Part shown: positions 31,133 to 41,247 of the stretch, one piece after another
How the letters are laid out: every line of letters starts with the position of its first letter
How positions within the stretch are numbered: the first letter of the stretch is position 1
Assembly (NCBI GenBank): GCA_037305845.1
Contig: CP147778.1
Coordinates: 1,728,001 to 1,792,000, forward strand
Length of the DNA stretch: 64,000 nucleotides
Reading direction: 5' to 3'
Source: Candidatus Freyarchaeum deiterrae
Lineage (GTDB): Archaea; Asgardarchaeota; Jordiarchaeia; Jordiarchaeales; Jordiarchaeaceae
Program-made: the position numbers and the translations under genes
The notes under the pieces: generated by a model
What the model was told of the DNA's origin: nothing
Databases searched by the model: none
Seen by the model: the letters and a program-made list of their open reading frames with translations, nothing else

Positions 31133-33178
31133 GTGAATAACCCGGAATTTACGAACATTTTTTGTTTTATAGAGCTTGTTATTAGGTGGAAATTTTTGGA
31201 AACTGGTAAAAAAAGAATATTTGAAGTTGTAAAGCATGACGGACCTGGAAGAATAGGTAAAATCGATTTAATAAATAAAAAAATTGCAACCCCTTTACTT
31301 ATTCACGCTCATTTTCATCACATAAATTACAATTTCGAAAAAATTGAGATTTTGAATGTTATGCCTGATTCTTTAGAAGAACAATTTCATGATAATGTTT
31401 TTTTAACAAACTCTGCTAATCCTTTAATCTACCCTAATTTAGATCAAAATTTAGAAGATCAATTGAGGTTACACCCAAACGTTTTAACTGTTCCATGTGG
31501 CTCTTTTATAGAACTGGAAAAGAAAACTACTCAGAGTTTTTTTGACAATTTAATAAAAAATGCTATTTACTTTAGAGAAAAGGTTGGAAAAAGCCATCTC
31601 GCTGTTCCGGTTTTCTATTCAAAGTATTCTGACTTGTGCGATAATCAGATCAATAATCTTTCTCAAATCGGTTTTGACGTATATGCTCTGAAGAATCTAG
31701 GTGAGATTATAGGAAATCCTCGTCAACTAGTAGAATTTATTGTAAAGGTAAGGGAAAGAATTCAACCCGATTCCTTACTATATGTTCCAGGTTTAATTCA
31801 TCCTGCTTATTACCCTCATTTGATTTATTCTGGTGTGGATATTTTCGATACAACCCTCATGATACTGGAAGCAAGGAGGGGTAGCTTATTACTGGAAGAT
31901 AGATCAAAAAAAATCGGGGAATTAGTTGAGCTTCCTTGCAACTGTCAGGTTTGTGAATCTTACAGCGTATCTGAATTGATGGAAATGCCCCCCAGTGAAC
32001 GTTTTAATAAACTTCTGCAGCATAACATTCTCTTCGCGGCTTCCGTTTTAAAAAGAGTAAGATTAGACATAAGAGAAGGTTTTTTGCGAGAGAGAGTAGA
32101 GCTATCATCACATTACTCGCCTACACTAGCGGCGTATCTTCGAATTTTGGATAAGAATAATTTTGATTATCTTGAGGAGTACACTCCAATTGCCAAAAAA
32201 GGAGTTGCATACTGTATAGGACCAGAATCCTATCATCGACCAGAGATCGAGAGATTTAGAAAAAGAATTTCAGAACGCTATACTCCTATAAGCGGCATTC
32301 GAACTGTGATTATTTTACCCTGTTCCGCGAAAAAGCCTTACTCCCTCTCGCAATCTCATAGACGGTTTAGAGAAGTTATAAGGCGTGTTGGTAAAGGATT
32401 AATCCAAGAAGTTATACTCTCATCTCCACTGGGATTAGTTCCAAGGGAACTTGAACAAGTGTATCCTGCGGCTCATTATGATGTTCCTGTAACTGGTGAT
32501 TGGGACCAAGAAGAAATAGAAATAGCTTCAGTCTCTCTTTCTAAATATTTTGAAAAATTAGATAAAGAAACCGTATTAATAGCACATCTAGATGGTGGAT
32601 ACAAGCAAGCTTGTTTAAAGGCTTCTAATATATCAGGAAAAAAGGTAATATTCACCGACATAAATGGCAACGCAGCAGGAGAAAGTAGCTTATCCAGCTT
32701 GAAAAAAACCTTAGAAGAGTATGCTGACCTGTCGGGAACTAAAGAGACATCGAAAATAGACTCGTTAAGAAAAATTGTTGATTACCAATTCGGAATAGGC
32801 GCTGGAGTAAAATTGATCCCTAGCTATGCAGATGTGAAAAGAGACCGAGTGGGAAATGTAAAAATTCTGCTAGACAAACAATTAGTCGCCTCATTTAACC
32901 AAGCGTATGGTTTATTCAAATTAACTCTCAAAGGTGCTGAGAGCTTGTCCAATTTCGGATATTGGATAGAATTTGATGGGGACATAGTAAGTGGTACAAA
33001 TCTTTTCGCTCCTGGTGTTAAAGATGCAGATCCAAAGATTCGACCCGAAGACTTTGTACTTATTTATAATCGTTCAAAAGAACTAATTGCAGTGGGAACA
33101 TCCAACATGAGTGGTTTAGAGATGAGACACTCGAAAAAAGGCATCGCGGTTAAATTTACTGAGAAAAAGATGGAATAA
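31133..33178 (+). CDS. arcS: archaeosine synthase subunit ArcS (TGT-like fold plus PUA domain); start may be ~31196
   Basis: FEVVKHDGPGRIG, CNCQVC, LPCSAKKPYS.SQSH, YPAAHYDVPVTG.W, C-terminal PUA. Confidence 0.92.
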   Translation: MNNPEFTNIFCFIELVIRWKFLETGKKRIFEVVKHDGPGRIGKIDLINKKIATPLLIHAHFHHINYNFEKIEILNVMPDSLEEQFHDNVFLTNSANPLIYPNLDQNLEDQLRLHPNVLTVPCGSFIELEKKTTQSFFDNLIKNAIYFREKVGKSHLAVPVFYSKYSDLCDNQINNLSQIGFDVYALKNLGEIIGNPRQLVEFIVKVRERIQPDSLLYVPGLIHPAYYPHLIYSGVDIFDTTLMILEARRGSLLLEDRSKKIGELVELPCNCQVCESYSVSELMEMPPSERFNKLLQHNILFAASVLKRVRLDIREGFLRERVELSSHYSPTLAAYLRILDKNNFDYLEEYTPIAKKGVAYCIGPESYHRPEIERFRKRISERYTPISGIRTVIILPCSAKKPYSLSQSHRRFREVIRRVGKGLIQEVILSSPLGLVPRELEQVYPAAHYDVPVTGDWDQEEIEIASVSLSKYFEKLDKETVLIAHLDGGYKQACLKASNISGKKVIFTDINGNAAGESSLSSLKKTLEEYADLSGTKETSKIDSLRKIVDYQFGIGAGVKLIPSYADVKRDRVGNVKILLDKQLVASFNQAYGLFKLTLKGAESLSNFGYWIEFDGDIVSGTNLFAPGVKDADPKIRPEDFVLIYNRSKELIAVGTSNMSGLEMRHSKKGIAVKFTEKKME

Positions 33179-33180
33179 AA

Positions 33181-34248
33181 ATGTTTGAAGCCAATGATTC
33201 TGAATTAGTTAATAAGATAATTGAAATTCGTCGAAAAAATTTGAACAGATTTAGAAAGGATTTCAAAGAGAAACCTGTAAAATACTGGTTGGAAAAGGAC
33301 AGATTTTTGAACAAGATTGGGACTTCTTTAGTCGTTATTCTTGCCACGAGAGGTTGTAATTGGGCATTATCCAGCGGAGGGGGCTGCTCGATGTGCGGTT
33401 ACATTTATGATTCTCCCTTAACTATTCCAGATTCTGATTCTTTAATCAAACAATTTGATTTAGCGTGTAAAGCTAGCATACCGGTTAAAGACTCCTTGGC
33501 AATTAAGATTTTTACTTCGGGAAGTTTTTTTGATGAGAGGGAAGTCCCGAAATCCGCACAAGAAGCAATTCTAAAAAGAATAGTTATGGATAAACGGGTT
33601 GAAGAAGTAATTGTTGAAACAAGGCCAGAATATGTTAATAAGGAAATTTTAAAGGAATGCTGTGAGATTCTGGGAAAAATCCATTTTGAGATAGCAATTG
33701 GTCTGGAAACAAGCAATGATAATATTAGAAATAATTATATAAACAAAGGTTTTAAACTCAAAGACTTTGAGAGAGCTGTTTCCATAGCTAAGCACTCCGG
33801 AGTAGGCGTCAAATCCTACCTCCTCATAAAACCTCCATTTCTAAGGGAGAGAGAAGCCATAATAGATTCTACAAACTCTGCTATAGATTCTTTTAAAATG
33901 GGAGTTGATTCGGTGTCCTTTAACCCCTGTACAGTACACAAAGGTACTCTGGTGGAACATCTTTGGGAAATAGGCAGATACAGGCCTCCGTGGCTTTGGA
34001 GCATAATTGAAATCCTGAAAAATACCTCCGAAAAGTTAAATGACAAAATAAGAATAATCTGCAGTTTAGCTGGAATAGGAAGCGAAAAAGGCCCCCATAA
34101 CTGTGGAAAATGCGACGCGAGAATCCGTGAACTACTGAATGAATTTACATTAACTCAAAACCCCGAAGTACTATCCAATATTGAATGCGACTGTAAACAA
34201 GAATGGCTTGATTATTGCGAATCAGAGTTTATCTGGAACTATTTCTGA
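33181..34248 (+). CDS. archaeosine biosynthesis radical SAM protein RaSEA
   Basis: TRGCNW....GCSMCGY, KIFTSGSF, ETRPEY, GPHNCGKC; directly after arcS. Confidence 0.9.
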   Translation: MFEANDSELVNKIIEIRRKNLNRFRKDFKEKPVKYWLEKDRFLNKIGTSLVVILATRGCNWALSSGGGCSMCGYIYDSPLTIPDSDSLIKQFDLACKASIPVKDSLAIKIFTSGSFFDEREVPKSAQEAILKRIVMDKRVEEVIVETRPEYVNKEILKECCEILGKIHFEIAIGLETSNDNIRNNYINKGFKLKDFERAVSIAKHSGVGVKSYLLIKPPFLREREAIIDSTNSAIDSFKMGVDSVSFNPCTVHKGTLVEHLWEIGRYRPPWLWSIIEILKNTSEKLNDKIRIICSLAGIGSEKGPHNCGKCDARIRELLNEFTLTQNPEVLSNIECDCKQEWLDYCESEFIWNYF

Positions 34249-35036: not shown

Positions 35037-35233
35037 AATTCTATTACTCCTTTTTTTAGTTAATAACTGAATTTATTTAACTTTATGATTTCACCATTAA
35101 GTAGCCTTTTAAAAATATTAAATTTCATATTTGTTAGTATATAATAAGACCTTAGTTTTGCACCCATTAGGTTAAAGATTTATTTTACATTACATAATAG
35201 TTGACAGTTGACTTACTTCAATGGAGGTTGTTC

Positions 35234-36727
35234 ATGTCTAAATGGCCTTTTATTGCGGGCGACTACTTTGTTGGAAACGAAAAATCTGCTATTGCCGTAG
35301 TTACTTGCGGATCTTACGAGTTACCAAAAGAGTTAGCTAAGCTGAGTAATAAAATAGCAATTGTTGGTTTCTGTGAAACTGAAAATGATGGAATAGCAAA
35401 GATTCTACAAAACCTAGCTTCTAACCCCTATGTTAGAATACTTATTATCTGCGGTGAAAGAGTGGTTGGTCATGAACCCGGACAAACACTCATATCGCTC
35501 TACAATAATGGGATTGATAAAAACTACAAAATCAAAGGGAGTGAGGGAACTATCCCCATTCTTCACCCAAACTATTTTCACGGAGATGATCCGAATAAAT
35601 TTGTTGAAAGATTTCAAAGACAAATCATCAATGTCTTAGACGCCAGGGGAGAAACTGACATTGAAAAAATAATCTCTTTCATCAATGAGTTTGATGAACA
35701 AAATCTCTCTCCCTTTCCTGAGGATCCTATCCTTCCTTTAAGACCCAAAGTCGAATACGATTGGGATACAGGGGTAAAGCGATTTCTAGACGAAAACAGA
35801 TTCTATTTTAATAAGGGCATACCTCTGTTAAATCCTTTAATATTTACTGGACAATTGAAAGTTTATGATATCGCAGGAATTAAGATAGGCGGGCAGAGAG
35901 GCGAGTATCCTATAATTTTGGCTGGTACCATGTTTTACAGGGGAGATAAATTAGTAAGTAATCACGATGAAGGCCTTTTTGATAAAACTAAGGCCGAGGA
36001 GCAAATTAGAAAGCAAGACGAAAACTCATTAAAGTACGAACTTCCTGCAATTGTACACATCGTAGGAGAGACTACTAAAGCTTTAACAAATTATCTTCTA
36101 TTTGTCGCGGATTCTACAGATTCACCAATAATTATCGATTCACCCATTTTAGAATCAAGAATAGAAGCGATGAGCGTAGCCAAAGATACGGGGCTAGATA
36201 GTAGAGTAATATACAACTCAGTGATTAGCGCGGATAAAAAAGAAAAAAACCTAATAAACGAAATTGGAACAATAGAATATTCCATAGTTTTACCCTTTGA
36301 TGTAAAACTAACCTCAAGGATTAGCAGACTTGAGGAAATACTGAAATTTGTCGGAGACGCAATCAAAAATCCGATCATCGATCCTGGTGTCTCTATTCTA
36401 GGAGAAGGTTCGCTAAGCGCTTTGCATGCGGCTTGGTTGCTCAAAAATTATTATGGTTACCCCGTGTGTATTGGAGTGCATAACTTACAGTCTAGAATCA
36501 CTGAAAGTAAGAAGGAATTAAAAGAACTCGATTTCTCATTTGATTATGCTCTACCTTCCTTTTATGGAATTGATATAAATCTTTACGGTCCAATAAAAAA
36601 CGCAGATAGTATATTCAGAGAGGTAGCAGCTGTTGAAGCTGCAATTGCGGATGAGAATGTAAATACCATTGGAGTTTCTCCTAAACCTCCTCATCCCTAC
36701 TATGCTGTGAACCTTGGTCGTGAATAA
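35234..36727 (+). CDS. soluble MtrA (corrinoid-binding)-MtrH (methyl-pterin methyltransferase) fusion
   Basis: N-terminal WP...GDY.VG, CETENDGI.K...N..SNP.VR, GHEPGQ (MtrA Co-ligand His). C-terminal YDIAGIKIGGQRGEYP..LAGTMFY, IYNS, LYGPI (MtrH). No TM anchor. GGAGG before ATG 35234. Confidence 0.88.
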   Translation: MSKWPFIAGDYFVGNEKSAIAVVTCGSYELPKELAKLSNKIAIVGFCETENDGIAKILQNLASNPYVRILIICGERVVGHEPGQTLISLYNNGIDKNYKIKGSEGTIPILHPNYFHGDDPNKFVERFQRQIINVLDARGETDIEKIISFINEFDEQNLSPFPEDPILPLRPKVEYDWDTGVKRFLDENRFYFNKGIPLLNPLIFTGQLKVYDIAGIKIGGQRGEYPIILAGTMFYRGDKLVSNHDEGLFDKTKAEEQIRKQDENSLKYELPAIVHIVGETTKALTNYLLFVADSTDSPIIIDSPILESRIEAMSVAKDTGLDSRVIYNSVISADKKEKNLINEIGTIEYSIVLPFDVKLTSRISRLEEILKFVGDAIKNPIIDPGVSILGEGSLSALHAAWLLKNYYGYPVCIGVHNLQSRITESKKELKELDFSFDYALPSFYGIDINLYGPIKNADSIFREVAAVEAAIADENVNTIGVSPKPPHPYYAVNLGRE

Positions 36728-36729
36728 AA

Positions 36730-38004
36730 ATGAGTTTTTACGGTCCATATTTGATTCGAACTAGAAGCATAGATGTTGCATGGAGAAGCTGTATCAACAC
36801 AATTATTGAGAAGGGAATAAAACAAACAACTGAAGATAAAAGGCAAGAGACCAAAGAAACATTTTGTGCAACAATCCACATAAGTGATTGGCAAAGCGGG
36901 AAACTTGTTCCAACAAATTATATTGGACTAAGTGAGGATCTAATTCTCGAAAATTATATTCCACAGTACCTTAGTTCCGAAAGAGGAGAACACATATACA
37001 GCTATGGATGGGCAATGCGTAAAAGGTTCATGTTTAATCAATTAGACTACATCAAAGATCAGTTAAGCAGTGGAAAGAGTGTGGCATTCGCCCAATTCTG
37101 GAACCCCGCAACAGACATCACAAGCACAAATCCACCCTGTATAAATATAGTTCTTTTTCATAAGATAAATTCTAAAATTCACTCAACCATATACCTTAGA
37201 AGCAATGATATGGCAAGAGCCTACCCAGACGATGTTGCAGGTGTTTACACTGTATTTTTAACTGAGGTTTCGAGCAGATTTGGTGGAAAAAAGGCTATGG
37301 GCACCATAACTACAATCTCTGGATCTGCACACGTATATGAAACTTCTATCAACGAAATTAAACAAAGCTCTTTCGGCTCAATATCCGCTTCCAACTCTAA
37401 TCCAAAAATTAATGAAGAAAATTTGGCTGGACCGGTACTCTTCCGGTCGCACAATTTAAAAGGCCTTTTACACGAATTAGAGGTCAAGTTTCCTAAATAC
37501 TCCAAGCCTCAGGGAAAACAAAATTACTATCTATATTTCGGTTTCAAATTGGAAGAAATAAATCTAGAGTTAAAAGAATTTGAGAATCAAGCGGAAAAAA
37601 TTGTACATGGCGCAGAAAATCTCGGAAAAGCTCTAAGGTTCTATAAAGCTAAAACGGACGATGGAGAACCAGTAACAATTGATCAAATAGAATTGGCTAA
37701 AAGAAAATTAGAGGAATCAAATCAAAGCAGGAGAATAATTATTACGCCTAATAATCCTTGGATAAAAGGGTACGACCTAAATCCTTTAATTATACAATTT
37801 TTGTTAAGGCAAGGTCGCCTATTTACTTCCGTGCTTTTCGCAGATTACTCGATAAAACATATCCTGTCGGGAATTTACTTAATTAAGGCAATTCAAAATG
37901 AAATGCTGAATGGAAATAAATACAGTTTGGGGCCTATGGCGTTTTTCTTCATGCCCGCGAATAATGGCTCTGAAACTGTAGACTTCTCAGACATACTTAG
38001 TTAA
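36730..38004 (+). CDS. two-domain thymidylate-synthase-fold protein (catalytic N-domain plus degenerate C-domain)
   Basis: YSYG, FNQLDYI, WNP..D...PPC(137), LRSND(157-160), SAHVY. The second domain has DQIE...L.....SRRIII..NP and IQFLLR but no Cys or RSxD. Confidence 0.85.
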   Translation: MSFYGPYLIRTRSIDVAWRSCINTIIEKGIKQTTEDKRQETKETFCATIHISDWQSGKLVPTNYIGLSEDLILENYIPQYLSSERGEHIYSYGWAMRKRFMFNQLDYIKDQLSSGKSVAFAQFWNPATDITSTNPPCINIVLFHKINSKIHSTIYLRSNDMARAYPDDVAGVYTVFLTEVSSRFGGKKAMGTITTISGSAHVYETSINEIKQSSFGSISASNSNPKINEENLAGPVLFRSHNLKGLLHELEVKFPKYSKPQGKQNYYLYFGFKLEEINLELKEFENQAEKIVHGAENLGKALRFYKAKTDDGEPVTIDQIELAKRKLEESNQSRRIIITPNNPWIKGYDLNPLIIQFLLRQGRLFTSVLFADYSIKHILSGIYLIKAIQNEMLNGNKYSLGPMAFFFMPANNGSETVDFSDILS

Positions 38005-38293: not shown

Positions 38294-39025
38294 ATGTTTG
38301 CAGCTCCTGGATTAGGCTACGACCGAGCCATCACGATTTTTTCACCCGACGGTCGTCTCTTTCAAGTTGAGTATGCAATAGAGGCTGTACGTCGAGGTAC
38401 CACCGCTATAGGTGTGAGGTGTAAGGACGGCGTAGTGCTTGCGGTAGAAAAACGTGTGTTAGCTCTCCAGGATCCCGAGAGCGTAGAGAAAATATTTGTC
38501 ATTGATGCGCACATAGGAACCGCAATCGCCGGACTGACGGCTGACGCGCGTGTTCTGGTAAATCAAGCTAGAGTTCAGGCTCAGGTTAATCGTCTTACAT
38601 ATGATGAGCCTATTAATGTTGAAAGTTTAACTAGGTATATTGGTGACACTAAACAGATGTACACTCAACATGCAGGTGTTAGGCCTTTTGGTGTTTCTTT
38701 CCTAATAGCTGGCGTAGACGAACTAGGCCCTAAACTATTTATGACCGATCCTTCTGGAACTTACTGGTCTTATTGGGCAGCTGCTATAGGTAGTGGGTCT
38801 CAGGCTGCTAAGGAAGTTTTAGAGAAGGAGTATAAGCAGATTATGGGTCTTGAGGAGTCTATTAAACTTTCTCTAAAGGCTTTGAATCAGGTATTAGAAT
38901 CTGAACTTGATCCTTCAAAAGTGGAAGTTGCAGTGGTAGACGTTACATCAAAGATTTTTAAGAGACTGTCTTCTAGTGAGGTTCAAGGTTATATCGATGA
39001 GATTAGAAAGTCTCGTAGTACTTAG
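38294..39025 (+). CDS. psmA: proteasome alpha subunit
   Basis: YDRAITIFSPDGRLFQVEYA, RPFGVS. Confidence 0.97.
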   Translation: MFAAPGLGYDRAITIFSPDGRLFQVEYAIEAVRRGTTAIGVRCKDGVVLAVEKRVLALQDPESVEKIFVIDAHIGTAIAGLTADARVLVNQARVQAQVNRLTYDEPINVESLTRYIGDTKQMYTQHAGVRPFGVSFLIAGVDELGPKLFMTDPSGTYWSYWAAAIGSGSQAAKEVLEKEYKQIMGLEESIKLSLKALNQVLESELDPSKVEVAVVDVTSKIFKRLSSSEVQGYIDEIRKSRST

Positions 39026-39027
39026 GA

Positions 39028-39756
39028 ATGATAGTTATGTCTATGCGCGGCGATAAGTGGGTTGATTTAGGTGACACTGTAGTAGCTCGTTTAGAGACCC
39101 ACGGTGAAAAATTTGAGATTCTTGTCAATCCCAATAAGGCATGGGAGTATCGCCGCGGTCAAAATATTGACCTATCTGAGATACTAAAAAGTTATGACAT
39201 CTTTGATGATGCACATAAAGGTCTTAAAGCAACAGAGGGAAAACTGCTAGAAGCCTTTGAAACAACAGACATAAATAAAATTGCTCCGATTATACTAAAA
39301 AAGGGATTTATACAACTCACTACGGAACAGCGTAGGGAGATGACTAATAACAAAAGAATGCAGATAATTAACATTCTTGCCCGTAATTGTATTAATCCTC
39401 AGACAGGCCTTCCTCATCCCCCAGCAAGAATCGAACGAGCTATGGAAGAGGCGAAGGTTTCAATCGACTTATGGAGAAGCCCCGAGGAGCAAGCAAAAGA
39501 TGTATTAAAAATGATTCAGCCAATAATACCAATAAGAATGGAACTCTTAAAACTGGCTGTAAAATTTCCACCGGACTATTCCGGTAAGGGATATAGCATC
39601 GTGGAACGTTTTGGAACCGTAACTAAGGACGAATGGCAGAAAGACGGTTCCTGGATTGCTATGATGGAAATTCCTGCCGGGCTTAGGGGTAAGCTCATAG
39701 AAGCGTTAAATAACCAAACTAAGGGAAAGGCAGAAGTAAAATTCATTAAAGATTGA
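39028..39756 (+). CDS. ribosome maturation factor SBDS
   Basis: GEKFEILV, QLTTEQRR, PHPPARIERAM; superoperon context. Confidence 0.95.
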   Translation: MIVMSMRGDKWVDLGDTVVARLETHGEKFEILVNPNKAWEYRRGQNIDLSEILKSYDIFDDAHKGLKATEGKLLEAFETTDINKIAPIILKKGFIQLTTEQRREMTNNKRMQIINILARNCINPQTGLPHPPARIERAMEEAKVSIDLWRSPEEQAKDVLKMIQPIIPIRMELLKLAVKFPPDYSGKGYSIVERFGTVTKDEWQKDGSWIAMMEIPAGLRGKLIEALNNQTKGKAEVKFIKD

Positions 39757-40448
39757 AAGGTGGTTTATCTTTGTCATTACATTTTAAAAATAGGAAAATA
39801 GTAGTACCCGGGGAGTTACTTGCCGAGGGCGCATATAAACCCGGCGAGGGAGCCTTCAGAGAAGGTAACTATATTTACTCCTCCGTAGTGGGCTTGGCGG
39901 AGGCTAAAGGTAAAATTGTAGAAGTTGTTGCTTTTGAGGGCGCATATATTCCAAAAGTTGGTGATGTAGTTATAGGAAAAGTTGAGGACGTAAAGATGAC
40001 TTCATGGCGAATTGATATACATTCACCATACCAAGCCACAATGCATCCGGTAAACGTTTTTGAACGACGTATGGATACTATGAAAGACGACCTCCGCCGA
40101 TACTTCGACGTGAAAGACACACTGGTTGCTAAAATAATGTCCTTTGACCGAACAAAGACTCCTGTGCTTACCGTAAGAGAGCGTGGTCTCGGTAAACTTC
40201 AAGGCGGATATCTGGTAGAAATGCTACCAACTAAAATCCCGCGTTTGATCGGTCGTAAGGGTTCAATGATAAATATGATTAAAAAAGAAACTAGATGTCA
40301 GATTACTATCGGCCAGAACGGGATAATTTGGGTCTCTGGCAAGAGTTTCGAAGAAGAAGAGCGAGTTATTAAAGCTATAAGACAGATTGAACGAGAGGCT
40401 CATACTCCTGGTTTAACTGATAGGATTAGAGATTTAATTCATAAGTAA
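39753..40448 (+). CDS. rrp4: exosome RNA-binding subunit Rrp4
   Basis: VVPGE, YIPKVGDVVIG, PRLIGRKGSM, GQNG.IW. Confidence 0.95.
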   Translation: MKGGLSLSLHFKNRKIVVPGELLAEGAYKPGEGAFREGNYIYSSVVGLAEAKGKIVEVVAFEGAYIPKVGDVVIGKVEDVKMTSWRIDIHSPYQATMHPVNVFERRMDTMKDDLRRYFDVKDTLVAKIMSFDRTKTPVLTVRERGLGKLQGGYLVEMLPTKIPRLIGRKGSMINMIKKETRCQITIGQNGIIWVSGKSFEEEERVIKAIRQIEREAHTPGLTDRIRDLIHK

Positions 40449-40470
40449 ATTTTGTTAGGTGAGTGAGTAA

Positions 40471-41247
40471 ATGGAAGAACCTCATATTTCCTCCCAAATT
40501 AAACTAATAGCTGAAGATAATTTGAGACTTGACAAAAGAAAATTAGATGAACTTCGACCAATTAAGTTGGAAGTTGGAGTTCTCTCAAGAGCTGATGGCT
40601 CTGCGTATATCGAACAAGGAAGAAGTAAGATTCTTGCAGCGGTTTACGGTCCGCGTGAACTACACCCTCGCCATCTTGCACAACCTGACGAGGCTTTACT
40701 GCAATGTATTTATAGAATGGCTACCTTCTCTGTGGAAGAGAGGAAAAGCCCAGCGCCATCACGTAGAGAAACAGAACTTTCTAAGGTCATAACCGAATCT
40801 CTCGCCCCCGCGGTTTTTCTAAAATATTATCCGAGATCGTCCATAGATGTTTATATACAAGTAATCCAAGCCGATGGGGGAACCAGATGTTCAAGTATAA
40901 CAGCCGCTTCCTTAGCCTTAGCAGATGCCGGTATCCCATTACGTGATTTAGTAGCGGCTTGTGCCGCAGGCAAGATAGATGGAAAAGTAGCTCTCGATTT
41001 GAGTGACATTGAGGATAAAAGCGGGGAAGCAGACTTACCTGTTGCTATAATGCCAAGAAAAAATTTGATTACACTAATACAGATGGACGGGTTTTTGACC
41101 AAGCAAGAATTTGTCGAAGCCTACGAACTAGCTGTAAAGGGTTGTCAAAAAATTTACGACATGCAAAGAGAAGTTCTCATACAAAAGTATATTAGTATTC
41201 AAGAGGAGTTCTCAGAAGAAGAAAACGAACCAGATAATGGAGGTTAA
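40471..41247 (+). CDS. rrp41: exosome subunit Rrp41
   Basis: [26 protein letters not shown]. Confidence 0.95.

What the first reader, a model, noticed from the sequence alone, without database searches (positions are those of the whole stretch)
35234..38004. Candidate new system: corrinoid-dependent pyrimidine C5-methylation (MtrA-MtrH fusion plus thymidylate-synthase-fold enzyme)
Seen: two genes 2 nt apart, flanked by ~290-330 bp spacers, with no other mtr subunits in the window. Gene 1 fuses a corrinoid-binding MtrA domain to MtrH. Gene 2 has an intact TS catalytic core. Established: MtrH moves a methyl from methyl-H4MPT onto the MtrA cobamide, and TS-fold enzymes activate C5 through a Cys-C6 adduct. 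Inference: the activated C5 could take CH3 directly from methyl-cob(III)amide, bypassing the methylene/hydride chemistry of ThyA and ThyX. This would link archaeal C1 metabolism to a B12-type nucleotide methylation route that I do not recognise as described.
Basis: partly seen in the sequence, partly recalled or inferred. Interest (0 to 1): 0.92.

Follow-up and report, generated by a model that had tools for sequence, protein, structure and literature searches.

The report
B12 methyl carrier paired with thymidylate synthase
In this Asgard archaeon and four related families, the only recognisable thymine-making enzyme is an odd single-chain thymidylate synthase that always follows, and is predicted to bind, a vitamin-B12-type methyl-carrier protein, which points to an untested third way of making a DNA base.

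Summary
Gene 1 (35234-36727, +) is a soluble MtrA-MtrH fusion. Gene 2 (36730-38004, +) is a thymidylate-synthase (TS)-fold protein that starts 2 nt after gene 1's stop.

- Gene 2 is a tandem TS fold. The N-half has the catalytic Cys but lacks the Arg-Arg phosphate clamp. The Cys-less C-half keeps that clamp, so the chain looks like a pseudo-dimer with one active site.
- All 21 aligned relatives have Asp where ThyA has the uracil-reading Asn177.
- In a 151-genome Asgard sample, the tandem TS occurs in 18 genomes of five families. Each time it lies directly behind a full MtrA-MtrH fusion, and that fusion occurs nowhere else in the sample.
- These five families show no ThyX and no other ThyA. The own genome also lacks thymidine kinase, DHFR, MtrE and any second MtrA. 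It has Dcd, dUTPase, Mer, Mch and three RamA-type activases.
- The cobalt ligand His and its Glu partner, and the MtrH Asp and Asn, are invariant.
- The co-fold scores ipSAE 0.91 against 0.00 for the best control.

I read the pair as a two-protein thymidylate synthase, most likely relaying methyl from CH3-H4MPT through cobamide to pyrimidine C5. The chemistry is untested. The MtrAH fusion is published, but I found no paper linking it to TS. Earlier notes of this scan report the same pair on other genomes.

The parts
35223..35227 (+). Shine-Dalgarno-like GGAGG, 6 nt before the ATG of gene 1
   Evidence: Read directly from the sequence. It supports 35234, rather than the upstream TTG at 35201, as the start.
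35234..36727 (+). Gene 1: soluble MtrA-MtrH fusion, 497 aa
   Evidence: ORF. Pfam MtrA plus MtrH. PDB sequence matches to MtrH 8z9u (4.9e-41), MtgA 6sj8 (5.7e-38) and MtrA 5l8x (1e-28).
35237..35731 (+). MtrA corrinoid-binding domain (aa 2-166), with no transmembrane tail
   Evidence: PF04208 scores 123.8 bits. In the alignment to M. jannaschii MtrA, H80 (35471-35473) falls on the axial ligand His84 and E50 (35381-35383) on Glu54 (residue roles from PMC4915002). Both are invariant in 14 fusions.
35732..35857 (+). Linker of about 42 residues between the MtrA and MtrH domains
   Evidence: It lies between the two Pfam envelopes and is poorly conserved in alignment A3. That it acts as a flexible tether is inferred.
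35858..36676 (+). MtrH pterin-binding methyltransferase domain (aa 209-481)
   Evidence: PF02007 scores 192.3 bits. D302 and N417 align with the two residues replaced by Ala in deposited MtgA variants (6sjo, 6sjp), and both are invariant. Residues 212-345 and 484-487 form the predicted interface with gene 2.
36730..38004 (+). Gene 2: tandem (pseudo-dimeric) TS-fold protein, 424 aa
   Evidence: ORF. PF00303 and TIGR03283 hits. AlphaFold model with pLDDT 89.9 and pTM 0.92. It is the only PF00303 hit in the genome.
36730..37368 (+). Catalytic TS domain (aa 1-213): C137, R157, S158, D160, D168, H201, Y203
   Evidence: PDB fold matches: AfhB 9iqu (Z 21.9, 200 aa, rmsd 2.3), MilA 5b6e (Z 20.1) and L. 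casei TS (Z 18.9). Catalytic residues are invariant in 21 sequences. D168 (37231-37233) sits at the E. coli N177 position. The R126/R127 motif is absent.
37369..37446 (+). Inter-domain linker (aa 214-239) with invariant G234 and P235; the main predicted docking element for MtrH
   Evidence: Interface residues 214-226, 231 and 234-239. Conservation.
37447..38001 (+). Second, non-catalytic TS-fold domain (aa 240-424) with invariant S333-R334-R335 and no Cys
   Evidence: This half alone hits TS models, and equivalent halves of relatives do too (TIGR03283 at 1.8e-4, 7e-7 in a relative). Folded alone it gives pLDDT 88 and matches TS structures at Z 15-16.4 over 177-179 residues. The SRR motif (37726-37734) aligns with E. 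coli S125-R126-R127.

Best explanation
The two genes encode one enzyme system, a 1:1 complex that serves as this lineage's thymidylate synthase.

**Proposed steps**
1. The MtrH domain of gene 1 takes the methyl group of N5-methyl-H4MPT, made by Mer in the Wood-Ljungdahl methyl branch.
2. It transfers that methyl to the cob(I)amide held, His-on, by the tethered MtrA domain.
3. The MtrA domain swings to the single active site of the tandem TS protein, which is docked on MtrH through its inter-domain linker.
4. There Cys137 has added to C6 of the bound pyrimidine nucleotide, and the resulting C5 nucleophile takes CH3 from methyl-cob(III)amide.
5. Loss of the C5 proton and elimination of Cys give the 5-methyl product, cob(I)amide and H4MPT. 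No dihydropterin is formed.

**Architecture.** The phosphate clamp (R334/R335) comes from the Cys-less second TS domain of the same chain. One chain therefore replaces the usual homodimer.

**Acceptor.** It is most likely dUMP, because Dcd and dUTPase are present. The invariant Asp168 leaves dCMP open.

**What is shown.** Gene structure, domain identities, residue conservation, strict co-occurrence, absence of other TS genes, and a confident co-fold.

**What is inferred.** That the two proteins act together (about 0.8), and that the methyl passes through cobalt to C5 (about 0.45).
For: 1. **Linkage.** In 151 sampled Asgard genomes the tandem TS is found in 18. All 18 have a full-length MtrA-MtrH fusion directly upstream on the same strand. 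That fusion occurs in no other sampled genome.
   - The five families share the pair but not its flanks.
   - The genes are 2 nt apart here and overlap by 4 nt in L004.
2. **Necessity.**
   - ThyX is found in 0 of 19 other genomes of these five families, but in most families that lack a TS.
   - Gene 2 is the only PF00303 hit in a 100%-complete, single-contig genome.
   - No thymidine kinase is found.
   - Dcd and dUTPase are present to supply dUMP.
3. **A competent methyl relay.**
   - H80 and E50 match the His84/Glu54 cobalt-ligand pair of MtrA and are invariant (PMC4915002).
   - MtrH D302 and N417 are invariant and align with the residues mutated in MtgA structures.
   - Mer and Mch are present, as are three RamA-type corrinoid activases.
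4. **No other acceptor is in sight.** MtrE is absent, and gene 1 is the only MtrA-family domain in the genome. The paper that described the fusion states that the fate of its methyl group is uncertain (PMC11291895).
5. **Predicted binding.** ipSAE is 0.91 against 0.00 for the best of three controls. The mark was reached by 58 of 80 solved complexes and 2 of 110 mismatched pairs. The runs agree in at least 97% of contacts, and the partner's pLDDT is at least 90.
   - The sequence searches of the PDB with each protein listed no chain that combines MtrH and TS.
   - The interface uses the TS inter-domain linker, and no catalytic residue of either protein is among the listed interface residues.
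6. **Wider association.**
   - His-bearing MtrA+DUF4346 proteins sit next to TS, Dcd and thymidylate kinase genes. One contig is bacterial by its flanking genes, two archaeal. This held in 3 of 3 look-ups.
   - The nearest relatives of gene 2's TS domain are mostly MtrA-TS-DUF4346 fusions.
7. **Housekeeping context.** The neighbours are archaeosine, proteasome, exosome and ribosome genes, not the MttB/MtbC/RamA methylotrophy clusters.
8. **Precedents.**
   - Core methionine synthases are predicted to take methyl directly from MtrA or CoFeSP (PMC7857596).
   - A TS-fold enzyme is already known that works with a non-folate cofactor: AfhB with flavin, the top fold match.
Against: - **No biochemistry exists.**
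- **D160 stays invariant.** From my own knowledge, this residue (ThyA Asp169) is the side chain that hydrogen-bonds the pterin ring in ThyA. Its invariance is what classical methylene-pterin chemistry would predict.
- **Asp168 does not fit dUMP.** It replaces the Asn that reads uracil. From knowledge of L. casei N229D and T4 dCMP hydroxymethylase, this change favours cytosine.
- **The co-fold is incomplete for the mechanism.** It docks TS on the MtrH domain and says nothing about whether the MtrA corrin can reach Cys137.
- **The TS-fused MtrA-like domains I examined lack the cobalt ligands.** They have lost His84 and Glu54. An MtrA fold next to TS therefore does not by itself prove cobalt chemistry.
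- **CobS is not found.** The cobamide would have to be imported.
- **The chemistry would be new.** To my knowledge, methyl transfer from methylcobamide to a carbon nucleophile is known only in a few B12-dependent radical-SAM-family enzymes.
- **Relatedness.** The five families are kin, so 18 of 18 overstates the number of independent events.
Confidence: 0.45

Rival explanations
1. The chemistry is classical ThyA chemistry in an unusual scaffold. The tandem TS uses methylene-H4MPT as both C1 donor and hydride donor and releases H2MPT. The attached MtrAH is not in the chemical path to C5. It might hold or channel the pterin, tie dTMP synthesis to the methyl-H4MPT pool, or regulate the enzyme.
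For: - The pterin-contacting Asp (D160, equal to E. coli D169) and the rest of the ThyA catalytic set are invariant.
- Short methanogen-type TS enzymes without any MtrA partner exist in another Asgard family, f7.
- Mch and Mer show that methylene-H4MPT is available.
- The co-fold interface is with the pterin-binding MtrH domain, not with MtrA.
- MtrA-like domains fused to TS in other lineages lack the cobalt ligands.
Against: - It gives no role to an MtrA domain whose cobalt ligand pair is invariant, or to the invariant catalytic residues of a methyl-level pterin:corrinoid transferase.
- It does not explain why the only MtrA domain in the genome is reserved for this pair.
- It does not explain why the fusion and the tandem TS never occur apart.
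Confidence: 0.25
2. The acceptor is a cytosine nucleotide. The complex methylates dCMP (or CMP or dCTP) at C5. Thymidylate then arises by deamination of 5-methyl-dCMP, or the product serves some other purpose such as a modified base. This concerns the acceptor and can be combined with either methyl-donor chemistry.
For: - Asp at the N177 position is invariant in all 21 tandem TS sequences. The short Asgard TS, the ThyA-like TS of family f9, the TS encoded beside MtrA+DUF4346 genes (L036, L038) and the MtrA-TS fusions all keep Asn.
- The best fold matches of the catalytic domain are cytosine-nucleotide enzymes: AfhB with dCMP (Z 21.9) and MilA with CMP (Z about 20), against TS at Z 18.9.
- PDB holds L. 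casei N229D with dCMP bound (1njc, listed).
Against: - These genomes have no other TS or ThyX and no thymidine kinase was found in the own genome, so dTMP must come from this enzyme.
- Dcd plus dUTPase supply dUMP.
- The one CDA-fold deaminase of the own genome is TadA-like. It was not found in any other f1, f2, f10 or f16 genome sampled; only one f13 genome gave a weak, partial match. No conserved deaminase for 5-methyl-dCMP is therefore apparent.
- The Z-score differences are small and may only reflect the compact size of AfhB and MilA.
Confidence: 0.15
3. This is the published reading. The MtrAH fusion is a soluble methyl-H4MPT:coenzyme M (or reverse) methyltransferase of methylotrophic energy metabolism, and its position next to an ordinary thymidylate synthase is inherited gene order without functional meaning.
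For: - PMC11291895 and PMC9723677 propose CoM as a possible acceptor.
- Freyarchaeia are reported to encode CoM biosynthesis.
- The genome has several further MtrH paralogues and RamA activases for methylotrophy.
Against: - MtrE, the proposed site of CoM methylation in the Mtr complex (PMC4915002), is absent.
- The fusion occurs only where the tandem TS occurs, and always adjacent to it, while the flanking genes differ.
- The co-fold scores 0.91 against 0.00.
- The neighbourhood is housekeeping. The methylotrophy MtrH paralogues lie elsewhere, one of them about 3 kb from a RamA gene.
- The TS partner is not ordinary: it is a tandem fold with Asp168.
Confidence: 0.07

Closest known systems
Short archaeal (methanogen-type) thymidylate synthase, NCBIfam TIGR03283, within the ThyA superfamily PF00303
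   Same: It shares the TS fold, the catalytic Cys in a P-C motif, the R-S-x-D motif, and Tyr and His-x-Tyr at the nucleotide site. It also lacks the folate-binding Trp80/Trp83 region of bacterial ThyA.
   Different: - It scores below the equivalog cut-off (114.9 against 174.55 bits).
- It is a tandem duplication in one chain rather than a homodimer.
- The Arg-Arg clamp has moved to the Cys-less second domain.
- Asp replaces Asn177.
- It is obligately paired with MtrAH.
MtrA and MtrH of the methanogen N5-methyl-H4MPT:coenzyme M methyltransferase complex (PDB 5L8X, 5LAA, 8Q3V, 9QTP, 8Z9U)
   Same: It has the same two folds. The His84/Glu54 cobalt-ligand pair and the MtrH catalytic Asp and Asn are conserved.
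   Different: - The two are fused into one soluble chain with no membrane anchor.
- MtrB to MtrG are not in the window, and MtrE is not in the genome.
- It scores below the mtrA and mtrH equivalog cut-offs.
- The predicted partner is a TS-fold protein, not MtrE and CoM.
Cobalamin-dependent methionine synthase MetH, and three-component corrinoid methyltransferase systems such as MtaABC and MtgA-MtgC (PDB 6SJ8)
   Same: The logic is the same: a pterin-binding TIM barrel loads methyl onto Co(I) of a mobile Rossmann-type corrinoid domain, which carries it to an acceptor-activating module. RamA-type reactivation is available. This comparison rests on established knowledge of those systems.
   Different: The acceptor module would be a TS fold that activates a carbon (C5 of a pyrimidine) rather than a zinc-activated thiol. 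The corrinoid domain is of the MtrA type, not the MetH/MtaC type.
Core methionine synthases MesA, MesB and MesC (Price et al. 2021, PMC7857596)
   Same: These are anabolic methyl acceptors predicted to take methyl directly from a central-metabolism corrinoid protein (MtrA or CoFeSP), bypassing a separate methyl-pterin step.
   Different: The acceptor is homocysteine, and the enzyme has a MetE-like fold. That link is itself a prediction. The paper does not mention thymidylate.
TS-fold enzymes that act on cytosine nucleotides: T4 dCMP hydroxymethylase, MilA (PDB 5B6E) and the flavin-dependent dCMP hydroxylase AfhB (PDB 9IQU)
   Same: These are the best fold matches of the catalytic domain (Z 20-22). 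T4 dCMP hydroxymethylase has Asp at the Asn177 position (from my own knowledge). AfhB shows that the fold can work with a non-folate cofactor.
   Different: Sequence identity is only 16-18%. They are homodimers, and none has a corrinoid partner. They make hydroxymethyl or hydroxy products for antibiotics or phage DNA, not a housekeeping dTMP supply.
Flavin-dependent thymidylate synthase ThyX (PF02511)
   Same: It fills the same genomic niche. Among the Asgard families, ThyX is not found in the families that carry the pair and is common where no TS-fold gene is present. Like the proposed relay, it avoids making a dihydropterin.
   Different: The fold is unrelated and there is no catalytic Cys. 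It uses methylene-folate with FADH2 as reductant.

Membership tests
ThyA superfamily (Pfam PF00303) | Score above the Pfam gathering threshold, and a TS fold | tested here: met
   41.9 bits against a cut-off of 24.3. The model matches TS structures at Z 18-22 over about 200 residues.
ThyA superfamily (Pfam PF00303) | Catalytic Cys146, with Arg166, Ser167, Asp169, Tyr94, His207 and Tyr209 (E. coli numbering) | tested here: met
   C137, R157, S158, D160, Y92, H201 and Y203 align with the E. coli residues and are invariant in 21 tandem TS sequences.
ThyA superfamily (Pfam PF00303) | Asn177, which reads uracil O4 and N3-H | tested here: not met
   Asp168 is at this position in all 21 tandem TS sequences. 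Short Asgard TS and the other TS forms compared (f9 ThyA-like, L036, L038, MtrA-TS fusions) keep Asn.
ThyA superfamily (Pfam PF00303) | Obligate homodimer in which Arg126' and Arg127' of the other subunit bind the nucleotide phosphate | tested here: not met
   The catalytic domain lacks the S-R-R motif. A second TS-fold domain in the same chain carries invariant S333-R334-R335 but no Cys. The geometry in the model could not be measured with these tools.
Methanogen-type thymidylate synthase (NCBIfam TIGR03283, equivalog) | Score above the curated equivalog cut-off | tested here: not met
   114.9 bits against a cut-off of 174.55.
MtrA (Pfam PF04208; NCBIfam TIGR01111) | Family score; axial ligand His84 with Glu54 behind it | tested here: met
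   PF04208 scores 123.8 bits against 25. H80 and E50 align with His84 and Glu54 of solved MtrA and are invariant. TIGR01111 scores only 121.2 against 249.15, so the equivalog is not met.
MtrA (Pfam PF04208; NCBIfam TIGR01111) | C-terminal membrane anchor and membership of the MtrA-H complex | tested here: not met
   The domain ends at about aa 166 and runs on into MtrH. MtrE is absent from the genome. Cobamide binding itself cannot be tested with these tools.
MtrH / MtgA methyl-pterin:corrinoid methyltransferases (Pfam PF02007) | Family score; conserved active-site Asp and Asn of the pterin-binding TIM barrel | tested here: met
   PF02007 scores 192.3 bits against 22.8. D302 and N417 align with the residues replaced in MtgA variants 6sjo and 6sjp and are invariant. 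The TIGR01114 equivalog cut-off is not reached (185.4 against 271.4).
Corrinoid-dependent methyltransferase systems (MT1, corrinoid protein, MT2) | A methyl donor module, a corrinoid carrier, an acceptor-activating module and a reductive activase | tested here: inconclusive
   The donor module (MtrH), the carrier (MtrA) and RamA-type activases are present. The TS protein as MT2 is supported only by linkage and by the co-fold. Methyl transfer was not tested.

The most novel reading that the evidence does not exclude
This is a third mechanistic class of thymidylate synthase, beside ThyA and ThyX. It would be a cobamide-dependent enzyme that installs an intact methyl group from methyl-H4MPT on C5 of a pyrimidine nucleotide through methyl-cob(III)amide. 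It would use a single-chain pseudo-dimeric TS fold as the acceptor module, need no hydride transfer and release no dihydropterin. Variants using MtrA+DUF4346 proteins would extend it to ultra-small bacteria and archaea.
Probability: 0.4. Interest if true: 0.95.

Novelty: new variant of a known kind. Interest (0 to 1): 0.85.

Why it matters
Thymidylate synthesis is one of the best-studied reactions in biology. It is a major drug target, and only two enzyme classes are known.

- **New enzymology.** A B12-dependent route would be a new kind of C-C bond-forming methyl transfer from cobalamin.
- **An orphan explained.** It would account for the MtrA-MtrH fusion of Asgard archaea, whose methyl acceptor the literature calls unknown.
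- **Metabolic link.** It would tie DNA precursor supply in these relatives of eukaryotes directly to the Wood-Ljungdahl methyl branch and to cobamide availability. The own genome lacks CobS, which implies dependence on neighbours for B12.
- **Value even if the chemistry is classical.** The single-chain TS with one active site, and its obligate pterin-binding partner, would still be a new architecture for a textbook enzyme.
- **Testability.** The genes are small and soluble, and a labelled-methyl assay gives a yes-or-no answer.

Tried and rejected
- **Deaminase partner for a dCMP route.** The only CDA-fold deaminase in the own genome is TadA-like. It was not found in the other f1, f2, f10 or f16 genomes, and only one f13 genome gave a weak, partial match. 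Its best relatives are in an unrelated family at 76% identity. I dropped it as a conserved partner.
- **Second Dcd-like gene as a 5-methyl-dCTP deaminase.** It is an ordinary archaeal dUTPase (171.5 bits against a cut-off of 130). Dropped.
- **Profile comparison of the two halves of gene 2.** hhalign gave only E 0.02-0.06, though in the expected register. The homology was settled by TS family models on the C-half and by folding it alone.
- **MtrA-TS-DUF4346 fusions as a Rosetta stone for cobalt chemistry.** This is weakened because the TS-fused forms I examined lack His84 and Glu54. Only the stand-alone MtrA+DUF4346 neighbours keep them.
- **Expression.** No RNA holder was listed for the stretch, so no reads were laid.
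- **Literature.** I found no paper with MtrA, MtrH and thymidylate synthase together and none mentioning DUF4346. The searches on corrinoid or methylcobalamin with thymidylate synthase surfaced one relevant paper. It says that ThyA biochemistry in methanogens is little known.
- **Model geometry.** Distances such as R334/R335 to C137, or corrin to C137, could not be measured because model coordinates are not exposed to the script box.

Full report
**Observation**

The window carries two co-directional ORFs at the reported place.
- Gene 1 runs 35234-36727 (497 aa from an ATG preceded by GGAGG at 35223-35227).
- Gene 2 runs 36730-38004 (424 aa).
- Gene 1's TAA ends at 36727 and gene 2's ATG is at 36730, so 2 nt separate them.
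- The flanking spacers are 328 and 289 nt.

Pfam finds MtrA (aa 2-166, 7.5e-36) and MtrH (aa 209-481, 1.4e-56) in gene 1, and Thymidylat_synt in gene 2. NCBIfam's best model for gene 2 is the methanogen-type TS, TIGR03283, but below its cut-off.

**Organism and published background**

Homologues carry names from Freyarchaeota, Jordarchaeia, Njordarchaeota and Atabeyarchaeia. The assembly is one contig of 3.58 Mb rated 100% complete.

The MtrA-MtrH fusion of these Asgard lineages is already in print.
- Valentin-Alvarado et al. 2024 (PMC11291895) show its phylogeny and AlphaFold model. They suggest CoM as a possible acceptor but say the fate of the methyl group is uncertain.
- Sun et al. 2021 (PMC9723677) propose a two-subunit H4MPT:CoM methyltransferase.
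- Neither paper mentions thymidylate. I found no paper that links MtrA and MtrH with thymidylate synthase.

**Gene 2 is not an ordinary ThyA**

Aligned with E. coli ThyA and other Asgard TS forms and with 20 relatives, the N-half keeps these residues:

| Gene 2 | E. coli ThyA |
|---|---|
| C137 | C146 |
| R157 | R166 |
| S158 | S167 |
| D160 | D169 |
| Y92 | Y94 |
| H201 | H207 |
| Y203 | Y209 |

Two things differ.
- **Specificity residue.** The Asn177 position is Asp168 in all 21 tandem sequences. Short Asgard TS, the 337-aa ThyA-like form of family f9, the TS encoded beside MtrA+DUF4346 genes (L036, L038) and the MtrA-TS fusions keep Asn.
- **Phosphate clamp.** The N-half lacks the S-R-R motif (E. 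coli R126/R127), which in ThyA reaches into the partner subunit's active site.

The C-half (aa about 240-424) has invariant S333-R334-R335 in exactly that motif, but no Cys and no R-S-x-D. Three lines identify it as a TS fold:
- On its own it hits only TS family models consistently (TIGR03283 at 1.8e-4 here, 7e-7 in a relative).
- Folded alone it gives pLDDT 88.
- It matches TS structures at Z 15-16.4 over 177-179 residues.

The full model is confident (pLDDT 89.9, pTM 0.92). Gene 2 is therefore a tandem duplication that mimics the TS homodimer in one chain and has a single complete active site. I could not measure distances in the model, so the clamp geometry is inferred from homology.

**Gene 1 looks catalytically competent**
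- The MtrA domain aligns with solved MtrA. H80 falls on the axial ligand His84 and E50 on Glu54 (roles from PMC4915002). Both are invariant in 14 fusions.
- The MtrH domain matches MtrH 8z9u and the methylcorrinoid:tetrahydrofolate methyltransferase MtgA.
- The two residues changed to Ala in the deposited MtgA variants align with invariant D302 and N417.
- There is no membrane anchor.

**Linkage**

I sampled 151 Asgard genomes.
- The tandem TS was found in 18 genomes of five families: f1 (own), f2, f10, f13 and f16. Family f13 includes the two complete Atabeyarchaeia genomes.
- A search with gene 1 found full-length fusions in those same 18 genomes only. Each lies immediately upstream of the TS on the same strand, separated by a gap of up to about 80 nt or a 4-nt overlap. 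One, G020, has a truncated match and a gap of about 360 nt.
- All other hits were MtrH-only paralogues.
- The two genomes of these families that lack the pair lack both genes, and they are 69% and 83% complete.
- Flanking genes differ between families, so the adjacency is kept while the surroundings change.
- The families are related, so these are not 18 independent events.

**Is it the cell's thymidylate synthase?**
- ThyX is found in 0 of 19 other genomes of the five families, and in most families that have no TS-fold gene.
- Gene 2 is the only PF00303 hit in the own genome, and ThyX is absent there.
- Thymidine kinase and DHFR are not found.
- A dCTP deaminase and an archaeal dUTPase are present, both above their cut-offs, so dUMP is made.
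- Mer (421 bits against 348.7) and Mch are present, so both methylene- and methyl-H4MPT are available.
- Three RamA-type corrinoid activases are present.
- MtrE is absent, and gene 1 holds the only MtrA-family domain in the genome.
- CobS is not found, so the cobamide is probably imported.

**Predicted complex**

Co-folding the two proteins with their alignments gave ipSAE 0.91-0.92 in three runs, against 0.00 for the best of three controls.
- The mark was reached by 58 of 80 solved complexes and 2 of 110 mismatched pairs.
- The runs agree in at least 97% of contacts, and the partner's pLDDT is at least 90.
- This supports binding but does not show it.
- The sequence searches of the PDB with each protein listed no chain that combines MtrH and TS, so recall of a solved complex is unlikely.
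- The interface joins the MtrH barrel (residues 212-345 and 484-487) to the first strand and helix of the TS and, above all, to its inter-domain linker (214-239).
- No catalytic residue of either protein is among the listed interface residues. The MtrA domain is not in the interface.
- This fits a scaffold in which the tethered corrinoid domain moves between two open active sites, as in MetH. It does not prove that arrangement.

**Wider pattern**
- Two other Asgard families have MtrA-TS-DUF4346 fusions in one chain.
- Such fusions are numerous, and some sources name them from Patescibacteria and Nealsonbacteria.
- Most of the nearest relatives of gene 2's TS domain, in a library of 1.84 billion representatives, have the length and layout of such fusions. 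Those I checked with Pfam do carry these domains.
- The tandem family itself is only about four clusters at 50% identity.
- The TS-fused MtrA-like domains I examined have lost His84 and Glu54.
- Stand-alone MtrA+DUF4346 proteins keep both residues. In 3 of 3 look-ups they sit beside TS, dCTP deaminase and, in the bacterial one, thymidylate kinase genes. One contig is bacterial by its flanking genes and two are archaeal.
- One 877-aa protein joins MtrA-like, DUF4346 and a tandem TS.

An MtrA-fold partner of archaeal-type TS is therefore a broad theme. Whether all of these partners use cobalt is open.

**Most likely mechanism**

The parts form a complete corrinoid methyl relay: a methyl-pterin:Co(I) transferase, a His-on carrier and activases. 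The relay's only missing element is an acceptor. The only protein that always accompanies it, and is predicted to bind it, activates C5 of a pyrimidine through a Cys adduct.

I therefore favour this route: methyl-H4MPT, then methyl-cob(III)amide, then C5, giving the methylated nucleotide and H4MPT without a dihydropterin.
- That the two proteins work together in dTMP synthesis: about 0.8.
- That the methyl passes through cobalt to C5: about 0.45.

The main rival (0.25) is classical methylene and hydride chemistry with MtrAH as an accessory. It is favoured by the invariant D160, but it leaves the conserved cobalt ligands without a role.

The base is uncertain. Asp168 argues for cytosine. Dcd plus dUTPase, and the lack of a conserved deaminase, argue for dUMP.

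The published CoM reading (0.07) is weakened by the absence of MtrE and by the strict coupling to TS.

**Comparison and novelty**
- The components belong to known superfamilies, but both fail the equivalog cut-offs of their named families.
- Gene 2 also fails two defining ThyA features: Asn177 and the homodimeric clamp.
- The system resembles MetH-type modular corrinoid methyltransferases, with a TS fold in the acceptor position.
- I found no description of it in the searchable literature.
- Earlier notes of this scan report the same pair on other Asgard genomes, and MtrA-like neighbours of ThyA in DPANN and CPR organisms. I re-derived the main points independently here.

Noticed in passing
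L026:48-1385 (+) and L027:649-2082 (-); proteins P0083-P0121: One-chain MtrA-like + thymidylate synthase + PterinBD-DUF4346 fusions occur in two other Asgard families. Many metagenomic proteins have the same layout, some named from Patescibacteria/Nealsonbacteria. In those I examined, the MtrA-like domain has lost the cobalt ligand His84 and Glu54, and the TS keeps Asn177 and the Arg-Arg motif.
   Followed up: partly
L036:3436-6660, L038:4001-7097, and a third contig held without DNA: Stand-alone MtrA+DUF4346 proteins that keep His84 and Glu54 lie next to a 257-284 aa TS and a dCTP deaminase. In the bacterial contig a thymidylate kinase and a DeoC-like gene follow. One contig is bacterial and two are archaeal, judged by their flanking genes. 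No MtrH is nearby, so the methyl source and the role of DUF4346 are unknown.
   Followed up: partly
Protein P0224 (877 aa, from the representative library): A single chain joins an MtrA-like domain (without His), DUF4346 and a divergent tandem TS that matches residues 7-375 of gene 2. Its TS has Asn at the 177 site.
   Followed up: partly
window 31133-34248 (+): An ArcS-like protein (TGT + DUF5591 + TGT_C2 + PUA, 681 aa) is followed, with overlapping stop and start, by a 355-aa ORF. Relatives of that ORF carry a Radical_SAM hit in L004. This looks like the archaeosine ArcS/RaSEA pair. It travels with the MtrAH-TS pair in Frey- and Jordarchaeia but not in Njord- or Atabeyarchaeia.
   Followed up: no
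G000:C1:3058307-3058738 (L030:1351-1785, -): The only CDA-fold deaminase of the genome (144 aa, TadA-like) was not found in the five same-genus genomes. It is 69-76% identical to proteins of an unrelated Asgard family (f12). This suggests recent transfer, or a foreign stretch in the assembly.
   Followed up: partly
G000 whole genome: CobS (cobamide synthase) is not found, although the genome has a Wood-Ljungdahl pathway, several MtrH paralogues and three RamA-type activases. The organism probably depends on imported cobamides.
   Followed up: no
window 38294-41247 (+): Directly downstream lies the conserved archaeal block of proteasome alpha, an SBDS-like protein, Rrp4 and an RNase PH subunit. 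This places the pair in a housekeeping neighbourhood. The family names come from the syntenic Jordarchaeum locus L007.
   Followed up: no
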